A stretch of DNA of 64,000 nucleotides from Ptychomitrium polyphyllum (Eukaryota), in assembly GCA_973851085.1 (NCBI GenBank), contig OZ316775.1, positions 18,042,001-18,106,000 of the forward strand, written 5' to 3'. Below the pieces are notes generated by a model that had not been told where the DNA came from, ran no database searches, and was given only the letters and a program-made list of their open reading frames with translations. Below are positions 6,444-63,790 of the stretch, piece by piece. The number at the start of each line of letters is the position of its first letter. The first letter of the stretch is position 1. The translations under genes and the position numbers were made by a program.

Positions 6444-8034
6444 TGGTAGATGAATTCATATTGCGCAATAAATCGTAAGCGCGTGGCGGAGAGGTCAAGA
6501 ACATGGCCAAAACGGTCGGGATGAGCTTGCGGCATCTCAGCCGAAATCTAAGCTTTGGGTTGGCCTCGTCCACAGTTCAGCTCAAAGCCTATTCTTTGAA
6601 ATGTTCAATGGCCGAATATATTTACTCGGAGTTCTCCTTGTGGGCTACGGTGGACCTGAATACGTGATTTTCCTACAACAATGATCCAGTTCGGAGGGCT
6701 AATCGGGTTCTGCAAGTCTCTCACAATATGTTCCAAAATTCCCCTATTTATCAACCGGAAGCCCAAACTGTTTGCGCTTACTCCTATTTTATTTTTGTAG
6801 AGATGTCTTACCAAACTAGAACGCGAAGGTCGGAACTCGATCAATCTAGTTTCAAAGTTCACCTTTCATATTACATAGTTTCGAGCCATAGCTTAGCCAT
6901 GTTCACATACTCATTGCAACCCATTAGCTTCTCATTATCTCATGAGAAAGAGGAGGTTGCACACCGAAGGTGTGCATGAGTAATAGTTGTCCCGGCTTTG
7001 TGTATTATGTACAGAGGGTAGTCCTCCTTTTAATGAAATAAAGCAATCACAATCTTTCGTGGCAACTATAGATCCGTTGTGAGACCATCGTGTTTGATAA
7101 TCCAACTGTCTACGACAACTTTTCCCATTAGTACCTATGTCGAACTAAAACTACCAGAACAATATATTCAAAAATGATTCACCACGTCCATTTCAACGAT
7201 GTATAAATTTGAATATCCTCGTTTCGCAAGTTGAACTCAGATTAAAAATTTAAACTAATTGGAAGCTTCGATGACTGCCGGCCCTTCATACGACAAAGAT
7301 TTGGTTAAGCACTGACAGCCCTGACCATCTCCCAATACGCTCGTCGGCATTCCATGATAACGATCACCGACTCCATGTGGTTGCTTGGCTGGTAAGGGCG
7401 GCCATGCTCTAAGAGTTTCAACTAAAAGGTTCAACTAACCTAGGTACGAAAATTTCCAGGATGCTAATATTTGTTACTCTACTACAATCTAACCTTGCTA
7501 TTATGACACTCCAGTATATGATAAACCTTAACTATAGGACTCCTTTTTGTGCGACCAATTTACCAGGTTCAAAATTTCCTCTATAGTATGATAATGACAC
7601 TTTGTAATACACCAATTAAGATTCTCCATTTGTCATATAATAGAAGTGATTAATACTTAATATGGATGAATTCATTTGAAATGATGAATATTTGAAAAAA
7701 AATAAGGAGCTTCATTTATTTATAATTGAAAATCTTATAAGAACTTTCAAAGTCTAGGATTAGAAAATGGTAGCTAGGATTTGTGTGGTGCTAGGGTTTG
7801 AAGATGGCGACTACTGTTTAGGTGGCAGCTAGGACTTGCATGGGAGTCAGTATTACATTTATTTTTCCTTTATAAAACCTAGCAAGTTTAGCACCTTAGT
7901 GTAACTTTCCATTTTGTGATTTTTTTCTCTTACCTTTGCAAAATTCACTCTAAAGAAAAATAAAATGAAAGGGGATTACAATTATCAAAACACTTTTGAA
8001 TCGAGATAGACTTACTTGAGGAAGGAGCACCTAC

Positions 8035-8082
8035 AATCACCACTTAAAGGAATCACCACTTAAAGGAATCACCACTTAAAGG
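8035..8082. repeat. Perfect tandem repeat, 3 x 16 bp (AATCACCACTTAAAGG)
   Basis: Units read directly at 8035-8050, 8051-8066 and 8067-8082. Confidence 0.95.
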
Positions 8083-9894
8083 AATAGAGCATACCAATAT
8101 CACATTGAATTGAATTGAACTTAATTGCAGCCAATAGTCTGAGTTTCCCATTTTCAAAAGTTTGAAAATCGAAGTTAACCAAATAAAGAAAATGTGATGA
8201 AACAAGTTGAAGGTTTGAATTTTATACTTAGTTGGGTGAAGATTCGAGAATATATCTCCTACAGTATATCCGTGTGCATACAGTCTGCCGTTCTAAGGTG
8301 CCGTCTGTACTGTACTGTCATATGCATTACAGAACGCCCATGGTAGAACAGTAACAAAATTAAACCAAGTCAAACACCATGAACTTTATATCAAGATTGA
8401 CCCAGAAACGATGACTTTCTGTTCGACAATTACGGAGTAATTATTCTCATGCAACTGATTCATTATACCAAGCACATTGCAGTATTTGGTTTCTCCCATT
8501 CGGGTAGATGCCCACACTAATCCAACTATTTAGAAAGATGAAGCAATGAAGTCTCAACATCCTTAATTTGTAGGCCGCTCATACAGTTCCAGAGAAGTAC
8601 ACACTCAAGTGATTGTCAGGATGAAATAAGAAAGCAACAATAAAATTGGAAATAATTCTGCACAACGGACAGTGTATGTGAATCAAGTGGACACAAAAGC
8701 AACAAGAATTCATGAAATACAATGACGACGTTCCATATAGGTAGAAGTTGGGGCTTAAGAGAATTGACGTACTAACGTAGACAGGGATAAATGGAAAACG
8801 TGCATTTTCGTAACTTCTAGCTTGGACTCTACATTAGAGATAAGCACAGAAAGCCCACTAAGAGGAAAAGACAGTAGGTCTGCTCACCAGTGAAATACGC
8901 CCCTTCTTCCCGACTCAGCCAACCTCAGTTCTAAAGACGTTGCAACGGCACTCACGCTCTGTTTTGTCGATTAGAGTAGCCAATATGAGTCCTTTCCAAG
9001 ACCCCACATTTTGAAAATTCAGATGCATAGCTTGAAAGCTTCGCTTGCAGGCAGTCTTACACCAGAGAGAAGTGAGAAATGGGTGACTGAAATGCTTGCT
9101 AACTAGTAATTAAGGTTAGGTAATAATGAGATATACGACCATCCAGGTCCTTATGCTCGAGGCAGGAAAGGCAGACCCTGGAATACCCAGCCCCACTCTT
9201 GGATGGAAAAACAAGAATGAAATAATACTACGGAATCCGAATTACTAAGTTTCCCAGACACAGGGGTTGATGTTGCAGGTCCCATTCAGACTTTGCAAAT
9301 GCAGCTAACCCTCCAGTCTCTAAAGAAAACATAATTTAGGCAAAAATGGATTTCCAAAACATGACATTTCCCACAAAAATCGAAAGAGTCAGAAAGAAAG
9401 AAAATGTGTCTTCGTTTTGCTTTACAGCTTATTCATAAAGCGACACGCCCTATGGACTACAAGTATATACAAGTATGAACTACAGTTGCTAATTCGAATT
9501 TCCGCACACGTGTGACAAACCTCACCAAAAACACTGTTACTCTGCTTCACATCCTCCATTCCGGCTCCTCTACACAATCCCAGCGGTACTTTGCAGCCTC
9601 TGTTTCGACAAAAGGTTCAAGTAAATCAGATAGTGAAACATCTCGTGATAAAGTTCACATCAGAAGCTAATACGCTACAAAACATATACATCATCAAATA
9701 ATTCATTGTTGTCACTGCCCCTGACAAAAAAGTGAGAAAATTTAAATTTAACCTCAATAAGACTGTACCTTTCATAGGCAAAATATATGTAAAGTCTTCA
9801 GCCACCTTTTCTCACCGCATCCTAGATAAGTCGTAATTTGTCTCCACATAATGTACTCTAGCCCTGTGTCATCTCTGTATGCTCGCCAATCGGA

Positions 9895-11576
9895 CTAGCT
9901 GGAAGCTACATGAAAATTACTGCCGTTAGATTAACAGCCAGAGAAACTGAACGTCCACAATAGGAACTGCGCAAATATAAGAAAGGCGAACAAAAATTCC
10001 ACAACAAGGTGCTAAAATACAGAAATAATAAAAGAAGCATGGCATAAGAAAGGACGCTTACGAAGGCCGAGGACCTCCTTGCAGCCATTTGCAGTCTCGT
10101 TATCCGTCTCTGGCCATTTCTCAAGTTCTGGTTGATTAAATACCATCGAATGATCTGTTAAACAACGAAGTACACGTTTGTAACCTTCTTGAAAGAGATA
10201 CGAATCCATGACGAGGAAGATCCGAAGAGCTTTTCAAGGACCCCCTCTTCATGCGTGTTTACTATCATCACACAAATAAATGGATCATTTGTAATGCAGG
10301 AAACTACCTTTTTGCCATTTCTTTGCTGCGCCTTTAATACCCCACTCCTCTCCAAGAGTCAGATGACAATGCTGTTTAATAGAATCAAGGAGTGTGAGGA
10401 GCTCATCAATATTTGACATGAAAGTCTTGCCAGTAAAGCCCATTTCCTTGATCTTGCCGATAGTCTCTGGACGAATTCCAAAGCCATCGAAGAAAGATTC
10501 CAAGTCTGCAGCTTCAGCTACGTTTGGTGCCTGTTTGGCAGCATCAAGAACCTAGATAAAATCTCACGACAAGAAACATACGCAGCCCTTCCGTTACGAC
10601 TAAGCAACGGTCATAACCGCATACAAATTCTTTTACACCCCATATCAAAATTTCACTACTAGACATCATAGACCAATCAGAAGACATGGATACTTCAAGT
10701 CGGTTCCAGTCGCAACACAACAACTGCAATGCTAGGTTCGAGTGAAAAATCTTTAATCATAGGCGCCATTAATCCATATCAATATTAAGCATAAATCTAT
10801 TTCAGAAAAACGCTTTCAAATGAAATACTGATAAGCCTATGCTTTATACTATCAAACTCGATATGTTGTCTGTAGTCCGTTTGCAGTGTGACCTGAATTC
10901 ATGACGACGAACAGCGTTCGAAAACTAATTTGGGTGAGCGAAAGAAGCTGTGTCGATCTTAACGACGAAAAACACATTGTCCAAGTGCTACTCATAGTCA
11001 AAAAATGAAAGGAAACAAGAGAAACGAGACATTAGAGGTTTCTTGGACCTTCCACTAATTCACAAATTTATTTTTTCTTAATAAGGACAAAAGAAAAGAA
11101 AGGGGCATGGATGACTTTTATACCGCAGACTTAACCGGCGAGAAATTAACGTAATTGACGCCAGGCAATCCCCCGGCCTGGAACACCATGCTCCGAAACG
11201 CCTGCTCCACAGCCGACTTCTCCCCCTTCTGCAGCGCGGCCATGAGATCCATCTGCTGCTGCGCGCTGTCGAGACTGTGATCCGACGACGACGTCGCGCG
11301 CGGCTGGCGAGGCGTGCGGTCCTGGCGCTTCCGCTTCACCTGCGACTTGGCGATGTCGATCAGCCGCAGCTCCTCGCGCGCCTCCTCCGGGCACGATGGG
11401 CACCCGGACACGCCCGCGGACCGCTTGTTCCCAAGCAGGTGCGCGCGGATGCGCATGGCGTTGCCCTGGAACTCTTTCGCGCAGTGCACGCACCGCACCA
11501 GCGTCGCCATGCCATGCCGCTCCGGCTCCTTCACCACCAACACATGACTCCACTCCACTCCCTTCACCTTCACCAT
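9895..11576 (-). CDS. Predicted chimeric protein: hAT-type BED zinc finger plus LEAFY-type SAM oligomerisation domain (about 265 aa)
   Basis: Exon 11576-11124 encodes W..H..CVHC..F.G...RIRAHL..C (zf-BED) and a hAT-like segment EQAFRSMVFQAGGLP. Donor GCG|GTATAA and acceptor tttatctag|GTT join it in frame to exon 10551-10308 (LESFFDGFGIRPETIGKIKEMGFTGKTF...LTLGEEWGIKGA, matching the LFY SAM pattern). A further in-phase exon follows at 10154-10062, then a stop near 9895. The splicing is predicted only. Confidence 0.6.
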
Positions 11577-13402
11577 CCCTCACCCTTCCTCCCTTCTTAC
11601 GTCCACCCCGCCCTTTCAATTCGCCGACTCACCATCCAGCGTTCTCAACCGAACCGAACAGAACAGAAAAGATTAAAAATAAAAAAAGAACGAAAAAATA
11701 TTCCTCCACCGAAAAAACGAACTTCCCAAGCTCCCGTGCCGCGAGCCCCTCGGTTCTCGTTTGCAGTTCCCTTCGCCCCCCGCAACTTCCTCCCACGCAC
11801 CCCTTGCGCTCACGCTCACAACCTTCCCCTGTCGCTCGCTAACCCTAGGCGCGCTGGGAACCAGCGCCCTGCCCGCCGTTCCCCTACAACCAACGCCCCG
11901 CGCCTCTACTCAACCCCCTCGCGCTCGCGCTCCCGCTCCCGCTCTCGCTCTCAGCCCTGCTCTCATCTCATCGTCAGAGTGCGAGTGCGTCAACAGCGCT
12001 CTCCTCGTCTCTCTCGTCGCGATCGCCCTGTTTACGACGCCTCCGCTCTCCGTCCCCCGGTCCCTGTCTCCCCACCGGTTTCTAGCCGCGACCTGCGGTA
12101 GCTAGGCTGCGTCCTGTGGTCGGATGCTCCATGGCTCCCCCTACCACTAGCTGCTGCACGGCTAGGATGGCGTCTCGCTTCTGTTGTTGCGATCCGACGG
12201 CACGGGCTTGGGTCCTTTAGCGCGGCCAGTCTGGAGGTGTCAGAGCGTACAACGGGATGCTGCTTCTGAAGGCGTTAGTGTAGTTAAGGCCGATGCTATC
12301 TACTGCTTGCGTACGCTGAGAATGGGGAATCTGCGAAATAAGTAGATAGTGTCGAATAATTTATTCTACCCGAGTTACTCGCTCTCAACTTACTATCCAA
12401 CTTAAATTTACGTTGAAACTGGCTCTGCAAGTTCCCAATGCTGGAAAAGAAAAAGAAGAAGCGAAAAGAAAATCTGAACCTGCGAATTGGCGAGAAGGCT
12501 AATTTTAAACGATGTTTTGTGATCTACGGTACTAGAAGGTGCGCAACCAGCCATAATTCTTTAGAGGAATCTGCCATTGTTGCTTTACGGTAAAGGAAAC
12601 GAGGCTCCAAGATGGTCGGGATTGCGTTTCTTTGGATACGGCGTGGTAACTTGCTGAGAAGTCATGTTCAATAAAATGTTTGGCCGTAAGAGAAGTTCGA
12701 TCGTCGATGAACGAAGTTCCACCCCCAAATAAAGTAGTACTGTAAGGTACAGTGAATGGCGGCTCCGAGTTGGGTCACACCATTTACATTGGAACAGCGA
12801 ATGCAGAAATTGTCCATAACGAATATTCTTTGAGAAGATTTGGAGAGTGAGTATGCCTTGAGAGCTTCTTTGATTCTGTGTGCGGTTTTCTGATTGCAGG
12901 TTAAGTTAAGTAAGCCGGACGTTTCTGATCAGTCAACACTTATGCTGACTCTGGGAGTCGAGACCCGCTCTGTCTGATTCACCTTCATTTGATCTTCTTG
13001 AAGAAGCTCATTTCCATATGTGCTTCACAGCTGATAAAAGTAGGGTTAGACTAAAATATGCAACGACAAGCACCGACCTCCATTTTTTTAGTGTGTGGTA
13101 TCCACTCGTCCTCGAACCACAACCATTTCCATTGATTTTCAACCTACGAGAATCATCTACACCGTTGCTGAGGAAAGACCACCGCACAAGGCTACCGAGA
13201 AAGCACTTTGGCGAAGGAGAAACATAAAGACTCCCTTAAAACCGAATCAAATTAACAATCGGATTGCGTTTTCTCATTCAAGAAAACGTTACACGGCGCA
13301 CCGTATAATCTTTCCCACAGGATATGATGCCTTAAGAACTCATGCTCTGCATACAATACTACAAGTCACAGCTCGGCCGATGTGGCCATTTAACGTTTAG
13401 AT

Positions 13403-43478: not shown

Positions 43479-45535
43479 TTGTTGTCACAAGTTTGGCATT
43501 GCCCACCTCCAACTTACTTAGCCTGCACAACGAACTTGGTGCTTAGAGTGTGCATCATTCACTCAACTTCCACACAAGACAAATAAGTGTAACGAACAAC
43601 ATAGGTAAATGAATTCATGGCTGCAGTTATCTTTGATTACAATATTGTATTCTGTTTCAGTATATCTGAGGGCTTTCGTTAGATTTAAATCAAAATTCAA
43701 ATATGAAGTTGACAAGAACAAAGGAGTCCACAATGTTACTTAGCTCATTGAATGTTGATTTTCGAAATACTATCTGCTAGGGGGACTTTAGGCTCTTCAT
43801 TCTAACACGCCAACAACGCCGGGGTTGCATGTGAGAATGCCGCACCACGGAGGTTTGAAATAGATTAACAGGCGGTGGCGACTCTAGTAATAGGTAATTG
43901 TCTTAGCTGGGAAGCGAAATTCAAAAGGGTAAATGGCAGGACGACATAACCCTCACCGTGACTTTCAACATCTTTTTCCTGAACAGTACCTTGAAATTTT
44001 CAACTTTAGGCCACTGGAGTCCACCGAACGATGACCTGAAGAATCATCTATTCGTGAGCTGGAGTACACAACCTCATTCCCTGGTCAAATTTAGGCTTCC
44101 GGCTTTCTGCAATAACCCCAAATCTTTATCAACGCTAACCACATGGCAGAATTACTGGTCGTCTACAATTAAATAATCAGAGAACTGAAACAATCTTCAG
44201 GCATGATACACCCCTAAGGGAGGCAAGGGAGGTATGTGGTTGATGAACACTTTCAACCTCCAATTGCAAAGCTGGATGAGATGGTCTATGTATCCATTTT
44301 GCCAGGGTCACTGTAACTTTAAGCCATGAGTTCATCAATTGGGGTTCTAAAATGGACTTTACATTAAGTTTTTATAATATTCAGAAAATCTAGTTTGAAT
44401 CTTTTTGAGCTCTTTGTTTGACGGAATTGAAAAATCTCAAAAAACACTTCATTTTAGAATACCATATTCCAAACCGATCATCTGTAACCAATTCGAGAGA
44501 AATTTGAATTGTGAGTTCTGAATTTTTACAAAATATGTGATGGTTCATATGTCAAATCTAACAGTATAGATATAAATTTCAATTCAAACTCTACAACTTT
44601 TGTTTGCAAAGCAATTTCAAATCATCCATCCAGGTAACATTCTATACTGGATCTTTGTAAATCTTCAAAAATGAGTGGGATCCTCTTTTGAGGGTTAAAC
44701 GGAATTTCATCAGAGCTAAATCTTATTAAGGCGTTACCAGTCAGTCAAAAAGAAATTTGATTACGTCACTCTTTTAAGGTTACCTTGATTTGTGCTTCAA
44801 TCATCAGCAGAGACTTTTGGACCAGTCACAAATAGCTTGGCTGATAGATCTCATAAGATTTAGAGTCCTGGCTTCATTGAATTTGTTGTCTTAAGGAAGA
44901 TGCTGGTCTGGTCATGTTTACTTAATGACATACCTAGTTTCTACAAGTGTTCATCTGAGATTGCATCCGCTCCTCGTCGACCACTGTATGGAATTGCCGA
45001 AGTCGTCTACTGACGCTCCATGAGTCCTACAAGTGTGTTATATGTCCTCCACCCCGCTCAATATTCACCATTCTTCTCTTGCAGTTTTAGGCTGCTGACG
45101 ATAGTTTTGTGCGGAAGCTGACCCTGCCAAGGGTCCAGCCGCCAGCTTTCGCAACTCCAACTCCTGCTGTGCAAGCACAGGTCAGGTCATATTTGGTCGA
45201 CTCGTAGGCGGCTACCGACTGGCCGAGGCTCTCAGGCGTCCTTTAGTAAGATTAAAGAAGTGATAAAAGGTTGAGACTAGGACGTGGGAACACAGGAAGC
45301 TAGCTGATTCAGCTCTTCCACTTCCACTCGTTATTGCACTTCCTTCTACCCGGGGAAGTAGTTGTTATCAAAAGACTAGGGAATATAATCACTTCGTGAA
45401 GGTCTTCTGCTTGAGAGAATGCGAATCTGACGTGCTGAAGGTCAAGTTGCTCCTCTGGTCGGGTGAAGTCCAATTCTCTAGTAGCTGCTTTGCGTTGCCG
45501 GTTATAAGCAGTACGAAATAATCAACTTAGGCATC

Positions 45536-48420
45536 ATGGAAGCCATCACAAACAATGGTCATGAGTACATTAGGAACAGATTTCACAAGACGAAGCAGGT
45601 GGATGAGTTTTGCGTATCTACACCAGCTGTTGTGCAGGGAGCCGATCCCTTGAACTGGGGTCGCGCTGCAAAGGCATTGGAAGGGAGTCATCTCGAGGAG
45701 GTGAAGAGTTTCATCAAGACATTCTATGAGGCCAAAGAGGTTCGTCTGGAGGGCATGAGCTTGACCGTTGCTCATGTGGCTGCAATTGCTCGCCGACCAG
45801 AGGTGCTTGTCGAATTGGATGCCGCGGTTGCTAAGGGTCGAGTAGACGAGAGCTCTAACTGGGTGCTAGCGAAGATCATGAAGGGCTCGGATATCTATGG
45901 TGTCACTACCGGTTTCGGAGCCACTTCTCATCGCCGAACCCAGCAAGGAGTGGAACTGCAGCGAGAACTCATCAGGTTTGTCTCTAATGCTCATTTAATC
46001 ACTTTCTTGAAGCTTCCAATCTGGAAAATGTATTCATATCACGAGGGATCTTGGGCACTCTAGATTGCTAGCTAGGCCCACCTACAATTCGCAACTTTAA
46101 GTATAAAGGCACGTTACAATGTAGGAACATTAATTGACGAAATCGAGTTAAAAATCGTAGATGCAAATGTTTGATGCAAAAGAGGAAGATCATTAGGAGT
46201 AATTGTATACATGGGTAAAAGTGCTGTAAATAGGACGGAAAGTCTTTGCGACAAATCCACCTAAGTTATGTTGCCAGTAATCTGTTTCGAACCTCTGAAT
46301 CGTATGTATGTATTCAGTCAGGTAAGAAGGGTTGTTCAAATTCGTTATTCCGGTTTGTCAGGTTCTTGAACGCGGGAGTGGTAAACTCTGGCAACACTCT
46401 TCCTGTAAGCACAACCCGGGCTGCGATGCTTGTCCGAACCAACACCCTCCTGCAAGGATACTCCGGCATCCGGTGGGAAATTCTGGAAGCCATGGAAAAG
46501 CTTCTCAACGCCCAATTGACGCCAAAACTGCCGCTGAGGGGAACCATTACAGCGTCCGGAGACCTCGTCCCCCTTTCCTACATAGCAGGTACAGCTTGAA
46601 CTTCACTAGAATTTACCTGTTCCACATGGTGATGTGATTAGGCTCTGAACTAAATGTGAACTAATTGTTTTTAAAGGAATCAGCTAGATTGGACATACTG
46701 TGTCATGAAACACGAGAAAAGCTTACGGAAGTGGGATGCTTAGGCACTAACTTTTGTTTCCTCCACTGGTGGAACACAGGTCTCCTCACAGCGAGACCAA
46801 ACTCCAAGGCAGTGACCGAGGAGGGGAAGACAATTAGTGCAATGGAGGCTCTGAGGATGATTGGCAGGGACCAACCGTTTGAGTTGCAGCCCAAGGAGGG
46901 CCTGGCTATGGTGAATGGGACTGCTGTAGGATCTGCCTTGGCATCCACTGCGTGCTTTGATGCCAATATCCTTGCTGTCCTGGCCGAAGTACTCTCTGCG
47001 CTTTTCTGCGAAGTGATGCAGGGGAAGCCTGAATTCGCCGACCCTCTTACCCACAAGCTGAAGCATCATCCAGGCCAGATGGAGGCAGCTGCAATCATGG
47101 AGTGGGTCCTAAACGGAAGCTCTTACATGAAGGCAGCTGCGAAATTGCATGAAACCGATCCCTTGAAGAAGCCCAAGCAGGATCGCTATGCTCTTCGTAC
47201 TTCGCCTCAATGGCTAGGCCCTCAGGTATGAATGATAACTTCGAGAACTCTCACTGTAGAGTAAGAAGCAGTTATCGGTTGCAAGATCATTTGTGAAGAG
47301 ATTCTCTTGAGGGATCGATGTTAACGCTGTGTTTGTTTCGCTCCTGAAGGTTGAGGCAATCCGCAATGCTACGCACTCCATTCAGAGGGAGATTAACTCT
47401 GTCAACGATAGCCCCCTCATCGATGCGGCAGGAGACAGGGCACTACACGGAGGCAACTTCCAGGGCACTCCAATTGGAGTATCCATGGACAATATGCGGC
47501 TCGCCATTGCCGCCATCGGCAAGCTCATGTTCGCCCAATTCTCCGAGCTCGTGAACGACTTTTACAACAACGGGCTGCCCTCCAACCTCAGCGGTGGACC
47601 CAACCCTAGCCTCGACTACGGCATGAAGGGGGCCGAGATCGCCATGGCCTCATACCTATCCGAGCTCAACTACCTGGCAAATCCCGTCACCACCCATGTT
47701 CAAAGCGCGGAGCAGCACAACCAGGACGTGAACTCTCTCGGCTTAGTCTCCGCTCGCAAGACAGAGGAAGCAATCGAGATCCTTAAGCTTATGAGCTCCA
47801 CATTCCTGGTCGGGCTCTGCCAGGCCATCGACCTCCGCCATATCGAAGAGACAATGCAGGCAACTGTGAAGAACATCGTCAGCCAAGTTGCAAAGAAGAC
47901 GCTCTTCATGGGCCCCAATAGCACCCTTCTTCCCGCCAGATTCGCAGAGAAGGATCTCCTCAGAGTCGTCGACCATCAACCAGTGTTCACCTACATCGAC
48001 GATGCATCCAGCCCCACTTACCCTCTCATGGAGAAGCTGCGACAAGCGCTCGTCCAATACGCCCTCAAAAACCCCAACAACGAAAAGCTCGCAGACACCT
48101 CTGTTTTCAACAAGATTGCCGCCTTCGAGGAGGAGCTCAAGGAGAGGCTCACCTCCGAAATCCCACTCGTCCGGGAAGCCTACGACAGCAAGAGAATCTC
48201 CTCCGTTACTAACAGAATCGAGAACTGTAGAACCTACCCTCTGTACAAATTCGTCCGCGAGGGGTTGCAAACGCAGCTGCTCTCTGGCCTGCGCACCATC
48301 TCACCAGGCCAAGAGATCGAGAAAGTATACGATGCAATCTGCGGGGGTAAACATGTGGCTCCTCTCATGCAATGCATCGAAGGATGGAGCGGCGCTCCAG
48401 GACCATTCCCCTGTGGCTGA
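45536..48420 (+). CDS. PAL: Phenylalanine ammonia-lyase, copy 1 (4 exons)
   Basis: Exons 45536-45975, 46362-46588, 46780-47225 and 47350-48420. Motifs [22 protein letters not shown] (Phe-type selectivity residue), [38 protein letters not shown] and [12 protein letters not shown]. Confidence 0.96.
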
Positions 48421-54819: not shown

Positions 54820-56369
54820 GGAGCTGTGTTTATTAGCTACATATGATCAACTTCGCTTTAATAGTGGAGCTGTATTTAGAAGAATTATGTTTTTGATGTA
54901 TAACCTTCACCTCAAAGGCGTCACTTGAAGTCGCTTCTCAGGACATAAGTTGAATTACTTGAACCAGAACGCCAGGCTTTGTCTTGTAAATTCAAGCAAG
55001 CCTTTCTAGTGCAAACAGCACTCATAGAGATTGGAGTACTTAACTCCCAAGTATCACAGTGGCCTAATTTAGTGCCTCAAATGTTTAGTCAATCTTTTGA
55101 ACTACAGTTCTCATTCAGTATTGTCTTATTCATTTATGAGAGTTGTTGGCTTGTAAAAATTTGAATTTTACAAGCGTCAATAAACCTTTGACTATTTATT
55201 AATCCATTGACTTTTGTTGAACCAAATATTAGTATTTTCAAAGTGTATGAATTGAAATTTTCTATCACTATGTTCTAAAAGTAACAAAAACAAAAGGAAA
55301 AGGAAAAACATTTCTTGATGACTTACTTTTAAAGATAGATGTGTCAATTGTGGTAAAAAATAGTATTATTTTGTTCCTTTGCGTATTAGCTTGAGAAGAG
55401 CAAAAGATGTTCTTGAAACTATTGAAAAACTAGAGGTGAAAATGGCTGTCAAAAATGAGCAAAATTCAATGACTTCAATGAAAAAAATCAAAGACGTTTA
55501 AGGATTGATTGAAGATTGTAAGGATCTATACTAGGAATCAGTGTTTATGGTGCTAAGATAACTGATTAGCCCTATTTTCCTTGGGTTGTGGTTATTAGCT
55601 GTCGAAAGAAGTCTGGATTAAAAAATTTAATACATGTTCACCTATCTCAACATGTTTATTTCCTCCACGAGGATAATTTGACCTGTCAAAAGTTAGGTCA
55701 AAAGTATGGGGCGAAGACTTTCCGGACCCTGCTTGATTTATGTTCTCTATTCTAATGTCGGACAAGCATCTTCGAGTCTCCATTCGAGAGATAGACCACT
55801 CTGGTATTTTTACTAAAGGCAAATGTTTGACGTCGTAGACCAGTTTCTTCACTTTCAATCCCGACAATTTTTTTGTACTTAACATTTTGCTTCCAGCAAG
55901 AAATGCAGAGGTTTGTGTTATTAACGACAGGGACCCTACACAGTTCTGGCTGATGAGGGCGGCTGCAATCAGGTCTTCTATGCTGGTGCAAAAGGTCTCC
56001 GTTGTTAGAATTGTCAACGAAGATGACAAAGGTGAAGGGCACACATATCTGAATTCTTGACATGGGTGTGGCCGCCGTGAGGTTATTAAATGAGACCTCG
56101 TATAGAGCCTATGCAGTAACTTTGAATGACTCTATCCATAAGCGCAGGAAATACAAATATTCTTGGTGCAGGTCGTGCACAAGAGATTTTAGATTTATAG
56201 CAAAACTAAGTTTCAAATCAGAGACAATCTCTCAATATATTTGCAGAATTACATAAGTAGCGCTTGAACTGGACTTATCATCCAGCTTCCTGTCTGCACT
56301 TCCTGCTTATTAGATTCCTGATCACTCCTACCAAGTCCCTCCCATAGTTCACAGCAAAACTTTTTTAAC

Positions 56370-58833
56370 ATGGAAGCAGTTGCAAGCACGAGGGGAGATG
56401 GCGTCGGTAGTGACCCCTTGAATTGGGCTTGCGCTGCAGAAGCAATGAAAAGTTGTCACCTTGACGAAGTGAAAGACTACATCAAGACATATTACGAAGC
56501 AGAGGAAGTTGTCATTGAGGGCAAGGATTTAACCGTGGCACATGTGGCGGTCATAGCTCGCCGGCCTGAGGTTGCCGTCAAGCTAAATACCGGTGTCGCG
56601 AAGAGGAGAGTGGTTGAGTGCTCTGACTGGATCGTCCAGTCGATCAACGAGGGTAGAGATATCAATGGCGTCACCACTGGCTTCGGAGCTGCGTCTCACC
56701 GACGTACCAACCAAGCCTTGCAGCTTCAGCAGGAGCTCGTCAGGTCAAACATAATCAGCAAGCATAAAATTTCGATAGGAAGAGTTCGTATTGGTTTATT
56801 CAGATCTGCTCTATCATTTCAATCTGTAAGCGGCAGACATAATTGACACTACTGCATATAATTGACTAGGTTTCATGCTGAGTTGCAGGTTTTTGAACGC
56901 GGGCATTATTGAACCCGGAAACAAGCTTCCCGTCAGCACAACTCGGGCGGCCATTCTTGTTCGCATCAATACGCTCATGCAGGGGTACTCTGGCGTCCGG
57001 TGGGAGATGCTTGAATGCATGGGAAAGCTTCTGAACTCCCAAATCACCCCAGAACTACCGCTCAGGGGGACCATCACAGCATCCGGAGACCTTATCCCCT
57101 TAGCCTACATCGCTGGTTAGAATTTGCGCGCATTCATCACTTGCTTCATGCACGGATGTTCAGAATCTTCCTCATTTTAAATTTAAAATCTAGAGGTCGT
57201 TCTGATATGAATCTCCATGGCATCGTCGTGTGGGCACAGGCCTGCTCATAGCGCGCCCAAACTCCACGGCTGTGACGAAAGAAGGGAAGATCCTCTCTGC
57301 GCTCGAAGCTCTAAAGCTGGCAGGAATTGACAAGCCCTACGAGTTTCAACCCAAGGAGGGCTTGGCTCTGGTGAATGGCACAACGGTGGGGTCAGCCTTG
57401 GCCTCCACCGTATGCTTCGACGCCAATATCCTTGTCGTGTTGGCAGAAGTCCTTGCTGCGCTCTTCAGCGAAGTGATGTACGCAAAACCGGAGTACACCG
57501 ACCCTCTTACCCACAAGCTGAAGCATCACCCTGGCCAAATGGAGGCAGCAGCAATCATGAAGTGGGTGCTTGACGGGAGCTCCTTCATGAAGGCGGCCGC
57601 TAAGTTTAATGCCACCGATCCGCTGAGGAAGCCCAAACAGGATCGTTATGCTCTTCGAACTGCACCTCAGTGGCTTGGTCCTCAGGTACCAGTCTGTCTG
57701 CCAGTTCCTCTGTTCGAGATTATGGAGTTCTCTTGAAAGCATTCCGTTTCGGGCAAACTTTAATACCTGCTTAATTTTGTTAGGTGGAAGTAATCCGTAG
57801 TTCGACGCATTCCATTCAGAGGGAGATCAACTCCGTGAATGACAACCCGCTCCTTGACGTATCACGAGATAAGGCGATCAACGGAGGCAACTTCCAGGGC
57901 ACTCCCATTGGAGTGTCCATGGACAACATGCGCCTCGCCATCGCTGCCATTGGCAAGCTCATGTTTGCTCAGTACAGTGAGCTTGTGAATGACCTCTACA
58001 ACAATGGCTTACCGTCTAACCTAAGTGGCGGACCGAATCCCAGCCTCGACTATGGGATGAAGGGCGCCGAGATAGCCATGGCCTCGTATCTCTCAGAGCT
58101 CAACTATCTGGCCAACCCGATAACCACCCACGTTCAAAGCGCAGAATGTCACAACCAGGATGTCAACTCTCTTGGATTCATATCCGCTCGAAAAACAGAG
58201 GAAGCGATAGAGCTTCTAAAATTCATGAGCGCCACCTTTTTGTTGGGACTTTGCCAAGCGATTGATCTCCGCCATCTGGAAGAAACAATGCGAGCAGCAG
58301 TGAAGAGCATCGTCAGCCAAGTTGCGCGGAAGACGCTTCTTGAAAAGCCTGATGACGCGCACCTGCCTGTTGAGACCGATCTGCTCAGAGTTGTGGAGCA
58401 TCAGCCCATCTTCACGTATATCGACAATCCATCCAGCCAAACGTACCCTCTCATGAAGGAGCTTAGACTGATGATGCTCCAACACGCGCTGCAAAACTTG
58501 GAAGATGAAAACTTAGCAGGGACATCTCTGTTTCATAAAATTTCCATCTTCGAAAAGGAGCTCACAGCAAGATTGACAACTGAAGTTCCACTGGTTCGAG
58601 AAGCTTACTATAATAAGGGACACAGCAGCGTCGAAAACAGGATCAAGGAGTGCAGGACCTATCCCCTCTACCACTTTGTTCGCTCCGAGCTCGACACCCA
58701 GTTGCTCTCCGGACACCGAACTGTCACCCCAGGTGAAGACCTTGCAAATGTGTACAGATCCATTCGTGACGGTAAATACGTTGCTCCTCTGCTTCAATGC
58801 CTGGAAGGCTGGACCGGTGCTCCTTCCTTTTAA
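56370..58833 (+). CDS. PAL: Phenylalanine ammonia-lyase-like, copy 2 (divergent; catalytic-loop Tyr replaced by Asn)
   Basis: Exons 56370-56743, 56889-57115, 57240-57685 and 57784-58833, with the same three intron positions as copy 1. MIO ASG is intact ([17 protein letters not shown]). The loop reads [16 protein letters not shown]. The ORF is uninterrupted. Confidence 0.93.
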
Positions 58834-62869: not shown

Positions 62870-63790
62870 CGGCTGGGATTTTTGTGTCATGCCTTTTGGA
62901 CTTACCAATGCACCCGCCATTTTTGAACACTTGATGAATGATATATTTTGGGAATGCCGCGATGATTTTATTGTATGCTATCTAGATGATATCTTGATCT
63001 ATTCAAAGAATCCAAAAGAACTTGAACGACATGTTCGCATAGTCCTATAAGAGCTATAAGATGTCGATTTGTATGCCAAGCTGGAGAAATGTATATTCCA
63101 TGAACCTCAAGTGGAATTCCTTGGTTATATAATCTCCAACAAAGAATTATTGATAGATCCAAAGAAGGTCAAAGCAGTTAGCAATTGAAAGAGGCCAAAA
63201 TCAATACGTTAGGTCCAATACTTTCTTGGATTTGCAAACTTTTATAGGATCTTCATCGAGGACTATTCTTGAATAGCTACACCACTCGCGGGACTAACAT
63301 GCAAGGAAAAGCTTGAATGGAGATCTGATGCTGAGGATGCATTCCAAAGTTTGAAGCGAGCTTTTACCACAGCTCTTATTCTGGTCCATCCGGACTTTCC
63401 AAAGCAATTTTATCTTGAAATAGATGCTTTCGACTTTGCACTAGAAGCAATTTTGCCACAAATGGGGAAAGAAAGGAGACTCCATTCAATTGCATTCCAT
63501 TCCAAAAAAAATTCAGGTGCAAAAATCAACTACGAAATCCACAACAAGGAATTCCTTGCAATTGTGGATTCTTTCCAAAAATGGCGTCACTTACTCGAGG
63601 GGGCCGCGCATCCAGTGATTGTATATACAAATCACAAGAACTTGAATATTTCATATCAGCCCATGTTTTGAATTGCCGCTAAGCTTGTTGGAGTATGTCT
63701 CTATCTTGATTTGATTTTTGCATTACATATTGACCCGGAAAATAACAAGGGTTATCAGATGCTTTGTCAAGGCGATCATACATTGCGCCA
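62870..63790 (+). mobile_element. Degenerate Ty3/Gypsy LTR-retrotransposon pol fragment (RT + RNase H)
   Basis: VMPFGLTNAPAIF, YLDDILIYS, KLEKCIF..VEFLGY, FLGFANFYR, RNase H LEIDAFDFAL and NYEIHNKEFLAIV..WRHLLEG. Several in-frame stops and frameshifts. No LTR recognised. Confidence 0.92.

What the first reader, a model, noticed from the sequence alone, without database searches (positions are those of the whole stretch)
9895..11576. Transposase-derived BED zinc finger spliced to a LEAFY SAM domain, with no LFY DNA-binding domain
Seen: exon 10551-10308 reads LESFFDGFGIRPETIGKIKEMGFTGKTFMSNIDELLTLLDSIKQHCHLTLGEEWGIKGAAKK. It aligns by eye with the LFY N-terminal SAM domain (Arabidopsis, from memory: LEGLFGPYGIRFYTAAKIAELGFTASTL...ELLVGERYGIKAA), sharing LE..F...GIR..T..KI.E.GFT..T and L..GE..GIK.A. 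The upstream GC-rich exon 11576-11124 encodes a BED finger and joins in frame through canonical GT/AG sites. No LFY DBD motifs (EHPFIVTEPGE, NGLDYLF, KPKMRHYVHCY, WYVPTKL) were found downstream. Known: the LFY SAM drives head-to-tail oligomerisation and is normally found with the LFY DBD. Inference: this is either a new oligomerising transcription factor with a transposase DNA-binding module, or a modulator that co-polymerises with LFY and redirects or inhibits it. I am not aware of this architecture being described.
Basis: partly seen in the sequence, partly recalled or inferred. Interest (0 to 1): 0.9.

Follow-up and report, generated by a model that had tools for sequence, protein, structure and literature searches.

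The report
Moss transposon–LEAFY chimeric gene family
Mosses carry a conserved, spliced gene family that joins the front end of a DNA-transposon enzyme (a BED zinc finger) to the oligomer-forming SAM domain of the plant regulator LEAFY without LEAFY's own DNA-binding domain, likely making a self-assembling transcription factor that appears not to have been described.

Summary
Confirmed and extended. Exon 2 is a LEAFY-type SAM (Pfam 41.6 bits, above cut-off; fold Z 10.9 to Ginkgo LFY SAM). Exon 1 is the first ~150 codons of a DUF659-type hAT transposase (37% identity over 143 aa), cut before the catalytic domain. No LFY DNA-binding domain is present. It is not a pseudogene fragment: relatives occur in Physcomitrium, Ceratodon and Sphagnum as several paralogues, an intronless contig matches a genomic relative with three GT-AG introns removed at the same phases, and dN/dS is about 0.04-0.09 in both domains. 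The SAM keeps T72, T75 and basic end-helix residues but has a family-wide four-residue deletion and E83>N, so self-oligomerisation is likelier than co-polymerisation with LFY. Best reading: a host-transposase fusion transcription factor in which SAM gives avidity to a single BED finger. DNA binding, oligomerisation and function are untested. Ten literature searches found no description; databases label members 'leafy-like'.

The parts
11124..11576 (-). Exon 1 (codons 1-151): 5' end of a DUF659-type hAT transposase. BED-type finger (W9, C29, C32, H46, C59; about aa 1-75), long helix with a basic stretch (about aa 64-95, possible nuclear localisation signal, inferred), linker, and a remnant of the helices that precede the catalytic domain in transposases (about aa 105-150)
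   Evidence: 37% identity over 143 aa to P0105, a DUF659 protein; ligands invariant in 21 of 21 family rows; AlphaFold pLDDT 85-94 over aa 11-80; dN/dS 0.046 for aa 1-75 against L001
10531..11123 (-). Intron 1, 593 nt, GT-AG, phase 0 (an in-frame alternative AG precedes 10551; TAA at 11120-11118 would end an unspliced, BED-only product)
   Evidence: phase-0 intron at the matching place removed in L002 relative to L018
10308..10530 (-). Exon 2: LEAFY-type SAM domain (about aa 160-226)
   Evidence: PF01698 41.6 bits; model of near-identical P0028 aligns to 4UDE at Z 10.9, rmsd 2.0, 73 residues; dN/dS 0.041 against L001
10155..10307 (-). Intron 2, 153 nt, GT-AG, phase 1
   Evidence: a GT follows at the same phase in 6 of 6 genomic loci inspected; phase-1 intron in L018
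10062..10154 (-). Exon 3: short C-terminal tail with a conserved Trp and Cys, predicted disordered
9895..9905 (-). Exon 4 coding part with the stop codon; a second AG before 9898 would give a tail 10 residues longer that resembles P. patens isoform P0022

Best explanation
This is a spliced, conserved moss gene made by fusing the 5' end of a hAT transposase to a LEAFY-type SAM exon, and it likely works as a self-oligomerising, sequence-specific DNA-binding regulator. Shown: exon structure, domain homologies, splicing in relatives, purifying selection, several paralogues across mosses, absence of the LFY DNA-binding domain and of the transposase catalytic domain. Inferred origin: before Sphagnum split from the Physcomitrium/Ceratodon line, a hAT element came to lie upstream of a duplicated LFY-type SAM exon; a phase-0 donor inside the transposase frame spliced to it, and the rest of both parent genes was lost. 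Inferred mechanism: one BED finger reads only a short motif with low affinity; head-to-tail SAM oligomers would array several fingers on a flexible linker and give cooperative binding to clustered sites, possibly sites first spread by the parent transposon. The SAM thus would replace the multimerisation that the whole transposase provided. Whether it activates, represses or organises chromatin is not known; no activation or repression domain was recognised.
For: Splicing: L002 (1,672 nt, no introns, translates exactly to P0009) matches genomic L018 in four blocks (100, 97, 100, 100%; the 97% block includes a 21-nt overhang) with GT-AG introns of 251, 203 and 149 nt at phases 0, 1, 1, the phases of the window model; L001 is colinear with the window's four exons over 624 of 774 aligned bases; Logan protein P0024 is identical at 256 of its 258 aligned residues. 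Selection: dN/dS 0.046 (BED), 0.041 (SAM), 0.069 (whole) against L001; BED 0.054-0.087 against 6 genomic loci. Family: 20 proteins of 171-340 aa, 19 with PF01698, 6 with zf-BED_2 PF26664, 0 with PF17538; separate, well supported paralogue clades each hold Physcomitrium and Ceratodon members. Transposase origin: profile A2 hit 355 representatives at E<=0.001, most of the 150 listed over the exon-1 part; 23 of 58 that I chose for a Pfam scan carry DUF659, which in most starts near residue 150-185, right after the matched stretch; an HMM of 20 transposase N-termini with no family member scores exon 1 at 103 bits. Zinc ligands and R42, R44 are invariant in 21 of 21. SAM interface: T72 and T75 in 21 of 21, R112>K in 21 of 21, R116>K/R in 20 of 21 (residues named in PMC4844672, placed through the 4UDE alignment). 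Precedent: Hermes makes an array of single BED domains by multimerising (PMC10368747, passages); LFY SAM gives cooperative binding to clustered sites (PMC4844672, passages and Discussion).
Against: No binding, oligomerisation, localisation or phenotype data. The window's exon 1 does not reach Pfam zf-BED (best family member E 0.045, below cut-off), and its fold matches solved BED domains only weakly (ZBED1 2CT5 Z 3.8, tied with unrelated rows). The mid-loop surface differs from LFY (net three residues shorter in 21 of 21 against 99 of 99 angiosperm LFY; E83 aligns to N), so polymerisation could be weakened or lost. BED domains also serve as protein-binding or decoy modules (BED-NLR, search listing of PMC7761493). 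The transposase HMM was built from hits found with the family profile, so that score is not fully independent. dS is near or above 1, so the ratios are rough.
Confidence: 0.6

Rival explanations
1. A modulator of LFY: its SAM co-polymerises with or caps moss LFY oligomers, and so inhibits LFY or tethers it to BED sites.
For: T72, T75 and a basic end helix are kept; single-face LFY SAM mutants still pair through the intact face (PMC4844672, passage), so one compatible face would be enough to cap a polymer.
Against: Invariant family-specific changes at or near the interface (four-residue deletion, E83>N, R104>E, R112>K) suggest a surface co-evolved with itself; SAM identity to an orchid-like LFY is only about 34%; the BED finger is as constrained as the SAM, which a mere cap would not need. 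The comparison used angiosperm and Ginkgo LFY only; no moss LFY was retrieved.
Confidence: 0.17
2. A transposon-control factor: the BED finger still binds hAT subterminal repeats, and SAM oligomers coat or silence the elements or poison transposase assembly through the retained helices.
For: The whole transposase N-terminus, not just the finger, was captured, and its last part is still recognisable (window tail 7.9 bits against a best of 6.1 among 466 scored shuffles of 500; P0021 tail 17.1 bits). Vertebrate KRAB-transposase fusions bind their cognate elements (10.1101/2020.05.07.082677, abstract).
Against: The finger is nearly frozen across distant mosses (62-67 of 75 residues identical in Sphagnum and in one paralogue clade), which fits fixed host targets better than a race with transposons; one paralogue clade has lost the tail (P0039 tail -1.3 bits).
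Confidence: 0.12
3. A non-DNA-binding adaptor or scaffold in which BED and SAM are both protein-interaction modules.
For: BED domains occur as integrated domains in immune receptors (PMC7761493, search listing); SAM domains bind many partners (PMC4844672, passage); the same SAM exon is reused with an unrelated partner domain in Ceratodon P0350.
Against: Invariant arginines on the helix that carries the His ligand (R42, R44) and a basic stretch after the finger in 8 of 8 members printed fit nucleic-acid binding and nuclear import (inference).
Confidence: 0.09
4. Chance neighbours: a decaying LFY fragment beside a transposon relic, or a mis-joined gene model.
For: An in-frame TAA lies 3 nt past the donor, so exon 1 could end alone.
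Against: Intronless contigs join the exons; the exons lie in the same order in 15 of 16 genomic loci, the 16th ending at its contig end; dN/dS under 0.1 in both domains.
Confidence: 0.02

Closest known systems
LEAFY/FLORICAULA transcription factors (SAM_LFY PF01698 + C_LFY_FLO PF17538)
   Same: SAM domain of the LFY type by sequence and fold; T72, T75, G70, E103, K108 conserved
   Different: No LFY DNA-binding domain; SAM lies C-terminal to the putative DNA-binding part, not N-terminal; mid-loop deletion and E83>N, R104>E, R112>K; kept as several paralogues, whereas LFY duplicates are described as rarely kept (10.64898/2026.04.13.717636, passages)
DUF659-type hAT transposases (BED + DUF659 + Dimer_Tnp_hAT; class I of PMC9296551)
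   Same: First ~150 residues homologous from the start methionine, same W...CxxC...RIRxH...C pattern
   Different: Cut by a splice donor before DUF659; no catalytic or C-terminal hAT domain; four-exon host gene under purifying selection
Host-transposase fusion transcription factors of tetrapods (e.g. KRAB-transposase fusions, KRABINER; 10.1101/2020.05.07.082677, abstract and outline read)
   Same: Transposase DNA-binding part joined by splicing to a host regulatory domain and conserved
   Different: A plant case; host part is an oligomerisation domain taken from a developmental regulator, not a repressor domain; transposase part is the first exon
Domesticated hAT proteins: DAYSLEEPER/SLEEPER, ZBED1/DREF, ZBED6; Drosophila BEAF-32 (listings; domain layouts recalled)
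   Same: BED finger used by a host protein, with self-association supplied by a second domain (recalled for DREF and BEAF-32)
   Different: Those keep transposase-derived or other self-association domains; none is known to me to use a LFY SAM; SLEEPER is described as angiosperm-specific (title of PMC3499209)

Membership tests
LEAFY family | N-terminal SAM_LFY domain above Pfam cut-off | tested here: met
   41.6 bits against 25.2, though C-terminal to the finger here
LEAFY family | [quoted passage not shown] | tested here: not met
   No hit in window ORFs; LFY DBD HMM finds nothing in the window, 18 loci or 104 stored proteins; 0 of 20 relatives carry PF17538
LFY-type SAM domain | Five-helix SAM fold closest to 4UDE | tested here: met
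   Z 10.9, rmsd 2.0, 73 aligned; next SAM Z 7.4; Foldseek rank 1, E 0.005; model of P0028, not of the window protein itself
LFY-type SAM domain | Head-to-tail interface residues T72, T75, E83, R112, R116 | tested here: inconclusive
   T72, T75 kept in 21 of 21; R112>K 21 of 21; R116>K/R 20 of 21; E83 aligns to N beside a four-residue gap
LFY-type SAM domain | Oligomerises in solution | not testable with these tools
   Needs SEC-MALLS; the complex predictor was not available
BED zinc finger | Pfam zf-BED (PF02892) cut-off | tested here: not met
   No hit for the window exon; 10 of 20 relatives hit weakly, best E 0.045
BED zinc finger | Pfam zf-BED_2 (PF26664) or language-model neighbours | tested here: met
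   Precomputed PF26664 on 6 of 20 relatives (name); residues 1-85 of P0028 score 0.97 to clusters with zf-BED 41% and zf-BED_2 38% of members. PF26664 could not be run on the window protein itself
BED zinc finger | N-terminal Trp, CxxC, His and fourth ligand | tested here: met
   W9, C29, C32, H46, C59 in 21 of 21; C29, H46, C59 invariant and W9, C32 in 90% or more of a mixed alignment with transposase-like N-termini
BED zinc finger | Fold match to solved BED domains | tested here: inconclusive
   ZBED1 2CT5 Z 3.8 over model 1-82, ZBED2 2DJR Z 3.2; tied with unrelated rows; no Foldseek match at E<=0.001
BED zinc finger | Sequence-specific DNA binding | not testable with these tools
   Needs DAP-seq, EMSA
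Autonomous hAT transposon | Catalytic DUF659 and C-terminal Dimer_Tnp_hAT domains | tested here: not met
   tblastn of 6 transposase-like proteins hit the window only inside exon 1; no such Pfam hit among 150 window ORFs
Autonomous hAT transposon | Terminal inverted repeats and 8-bp target duplication | tested here: inconclusive
   11 short inverted pairs in 7000-13800, none convincing as ends; none expected after so long
Host-transposase fusion gene | Transposase-derived exon spliced in frame to a host domain | tested here: met
   (splicing seen in relatives)
Host-transposase fusion gene | Purifying selection and conservation across species | tested here: met
Host-transposase fusion gene | Regulates transcription through sites derived from the cognate element | not testable with these tools
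   No genome held; needs ChIP-seq and knock-outs

The most novel reading that the evidence does not exclude
Early in moss evolution LEAFY's polymer-forming SAM was given a second, transposon-derived DNA-binding module, founding a hidden LFY-related family that forms mixed oligomers with moss LFY and tethers it to sites spread by an ancient hAT element: a natural domain-swap experiment showing whether SAM polymerisation alone confers cooperative, pioneer-like binding, and the first endogenous SAM partner of LFY.
Probability: 0.17. Interest if true: 0.9.

Novelty: new variant of a known kind. Interest (0 to 1): 0.74.

Why it matters
The LFY literature treats its SAM as tied to the LFY DNA-binding domain and LFY duplicates as rarely kept (10.64898/2026.04.13.717636, passages), and a survey of plant BED genes reports none in P. 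patens (PMC9296551, Discussion passage). Here four P. patens loci (source names LOC112279448, LOC112273240, LOC112286713, LOC112292190) encode BED-SAM proteins labelled only 'leafy-like' or 'uncharacterized'. It would be an old plant example of a transcription factor born by transposase capture, testable at once in a moss with routine gene targeting. It offers a natural test of what the LFY SAM does on a foreign DNA-binding domain, and a candidate partner or competitor for moss LFY, which controls the first zygote division (as cited in PMC5737466, passage). It also warns that domain-based counts of moss 'LFY' genes can include non-LFY proteins.

Tried and rejected
No whole genome held, so copy number and other paralogues in this organism were not tested. 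No RNA holder listed for the stretch; the two runs laid were contigs that show no joint in the gene: no evidence on expression either way. The complex predictor was not available, so no dimer was modelled. A search for LFY proteins listed 120 of 242 hits, and every full LFY named there was an angiosperm protein, so I could not place the SAM among moss type I/II, hornwort or algal LFY and built no such tree. Synteny: 10 neighbour ORFs of the window had no tblastn hit in the 18 loci (flanks up to 6 kb). No terminal repeats. Alignment of L001's 3' end to the downstream window scored 139 against a shuffle maximum of 125: weak, not used. PDB sequence searches gave nothing for the finger; Foldseek gave no match at E<=0.001 for either model. 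Acceptor 10551 rejected in favour of 10530. Pseudogene reading rejected. Earlier scan findings: none. Literature: ten searches gave no description of a BED-SAM_LFY protein; one search found no paper with six accession numbers. The library lacks most subscription journals, gene-model ids of the Pp3c type were not searched, and no supplements were read, so members may stand in gene lists.

Full report
Observation. The window is intron-rich plant DNA with kinesin, dynamin-family, photolyase, P450, dirigent and aromatic amino acid lyase genes; no whole genome is held. On the minus strand a GC-rich frame starts at ATG 11576 and a second frame at 10551-10288 hits Pfam SAM_LFY (E 1.2e-10, 41.6 bits, cut-off 25.2) and the Ginkgo LFY SAM chain 4UDE (E 1.1e-5). 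The donor at 11123 is phase 0 and in frame with two acceptors. Among 24 exon combinations scored against four close relatives, the best was 11576-11124, 10530-10308, 10154-10062, 9905-9895, giving 259 aa, identical to Logan protein P0024 at 256 of 258 aligned residues. No LFY DNA-binding domain was found by Pfam or by an HMM of 40 LFY domains over the window, the 18 loci and 104 stored proteins (controls scored 141 bits or more).

A family, not an accident. The SAM exon found 20 longer proteins of 171-340 aa among 388 candidates; 19 carry PF01698, 6 PF26664 (zf-BED_2) and none PF17538. A profile search gave 47 proteins; the 11 with an organism name are Physcomitrium, Ceratodon or Sphagnum. Most full-length members have the same layout: finger, basic stretch, variable linker, SAM, short tail. 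A tree of 20 members has two clades with full support that each hold Physcomitrium and Ceratodon rows, three Sphagnum groups, and the window's closest relatives on short, weakly resolved branches; the root is arbitrary. P. patens has four loci by source names.

Splicing and selection. A metagenome scan gave 18 loci. Two are intronless. L001 is colinear with the window's four exons, with all three junctions at the modelled places. L002 translates exactly to P0009 and matches genomic L018 in four blocks with GT-AG introns of 251, 203 and 149 nt at phases 0, 1, 1; it is most simply a transcript. Of the other 16 loci, 15 hold exon 1, the SAM exon and the tail exon in order; L012 ends after exon 1. 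Nei-Gojobori dN/dS against L001 is 0.046 (aa 1-75), 0.101 (linker), 0.041 (SAM), 0.069 overall; for 6 of the 15 genomic loci the finger gave 0.054-0.087, and the SAM had saturated synonymous sites in 5 (pN 0.08-0.11, pS 0.77-0.86) and 0.039 in one. dS is above 1 in nearly all these comparisons, so these are rough. Splicing in this organism itself was not observed.

Origin of exon 1. Pfam zf-BED does not recognise the window's exon and reaches only E 0.045 in relatives. But HMMER over 1.84 billion representatives with the family profile gave 355 hits at E<=0.001; below the family itself most of the 150 listed match within profile positions 1-155. I scanned 58 of the 150, chosen mainly for length: 23 carry DUF659, 13 zf-BED, 4 Dimer_Tnp_hAT; DUF659 usually begins near residue 150-185, just after the matched stretch. 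Exon 1 is 37% identical over 143 aa to P0105 (pairwise E 1e-24) and 35% over 85 aa to the full-length transposase-like P0140. The alignment runs from the start methionine through the finger to a conserved helix-glycine-proline element near residue 138. One hit is from the alga Chlorokybus; most are unnamed. An HMM of 20 such N-termini scores exon 1 at 103 bits and its last 52 residues at 7.9 bits against a best of 6.1 in shuffles (the 20 were found with the family profile, so this is not fully independent). Six of these proteins hit the window only within exon 1. So exon 1 is the 5' end of a DUF659-type hAT transposase cut before its catalytic domain. The language-model search agrees (0.97 to zf-BED clusters). 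AlphaFold gives a confident hairpin-helix finger (pLDDT 85-94 over aa 11-80), but its match to solved BED domains is weak (Z 3.8).

The SAM. The model of P0028 aligns to 4UDE at Z 10.9, well above other SAMs. PMC4844672 (passages and Discussion read) names T72, T75, E83 on the mid-loop face and R112, R116 on the end-helix face. Placed through the 4UDE alignment, the family keeps T72 and T75 (21 of 21), has K at 112 (21 of 21) and K/R at 116 (20 of 21), but is three residues shorter between G70 and G106 than 99 of 99 angiosperm LFY SAMs, with a four-residue gap that puts N at 83, and has E where LFY has R104. Both faces are thus constrained but remodelled. I read this as a retained self-interface with its own specificity; this is inference, no moss LFY was available for comparison, and no complex could be modelled.

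Mechanism. Hermes BED recognises a four-base motif and the transposase builds an array of single BED domains by multimerising (PMC10368747, passages). LFY SAM oligomers give cooperative binding to clustered or weak sites and access to closed chromatin (PMC4844672). A BED finger on a disordered linker (pLDDT under 50 over aa 84-156) joined to a SAM would combine the two. I put this at 0.6; LFY modulation at 0.17, transposon control at 0.12, a non-DNA adaptor at 0.09, an artefact at 0.02.

Comparison and novelty. It fails LFY membership (no DNA-binding domain) and is not a transposon. It meets the testable features of a host-transposase fusion gene as described for tetrapods (10.1101/2020.05.07.082677, abstract and outline). 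PMC9296551 (passages and section 15) reports no zf-BED gene in P. patens and does not mention LFY; PMC6588583 (passages) collected only LFY genes with intact domains; 10.64898/2026.04.13.717636 (passages) has no mention of BED; PMC8742948 and PMC5737466 (passages) add nothing on it. Ten searches found no description, within the limits given under Tried and rejected. Restriction to mosses is likely but not shown: it rests on the names available and on 150 of 355 hits listed. The direction LFY-to-family for the SAM is assumed from LFY's wider range, not tested.

Verdict. A real, conserved, apparently undescribed moss gene family with a new domain combination born by a known route. Interest 0.74.

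Noticed in passing
P0350 (Ceratodon KC19_9G122900): The family-type SAM stands at the N-terminus of a 416-aa protein without the finger, followed by an unrelated part with a Walker A-like motif (motif recognised from memory; no Pfam hit): the SAM exon seems to have been shuffled again, or the gene model is fused.
   Followed up: partly
P0343 (Sphagnum balticum), P0346, P0172, P0209, P0125, P0163: A diverged lineage with an eroded finger (first CxxC missing in the models) and changed end-helix region: SAM-only or decaying copies.
   Followed up: partly
L006:14-5496 and L007:6001-11477: Two family paralogues lie tail to tail about 3 kb apart.
   Followed up: no
window 9898-9820 (-): A second acceptor 7 nt past 9905 gives a longer tail like P. 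patens isoform P0022; the similarity continues in frame past a TAG near 9858, so the 3' region is conserved beyond the stop.
   Followed up: partly
window 7570-7800: A short AT-rich repeat with many diverged copies elsewhere in runs X1 and X2 (dozens of partial contigs, loose ends), between the kinesin gene and this gene.
   Followed up: no
P0097: A copy of exon 1 whose changes look like wholesale C-to-T substitution; perhaps a bisulfite-type library rather than a real gene (inference).
   Followed up: no
window 45485-48417 and 56322-58830 (+): Two aromatic amino acid lyase genes in the same orientation about 8 kb apart.
   Followed up: no
window 63273-63668 (+): Reverse-transcriptase RNase H-like fragment, likely a retroelement at the window's end.
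   Followed up: no
window 20353-23185 (+): A photolyase-domain exon is followed by alpha/beta-hydrolase exons on the same strand, possibly one gene.
   Followed up: no
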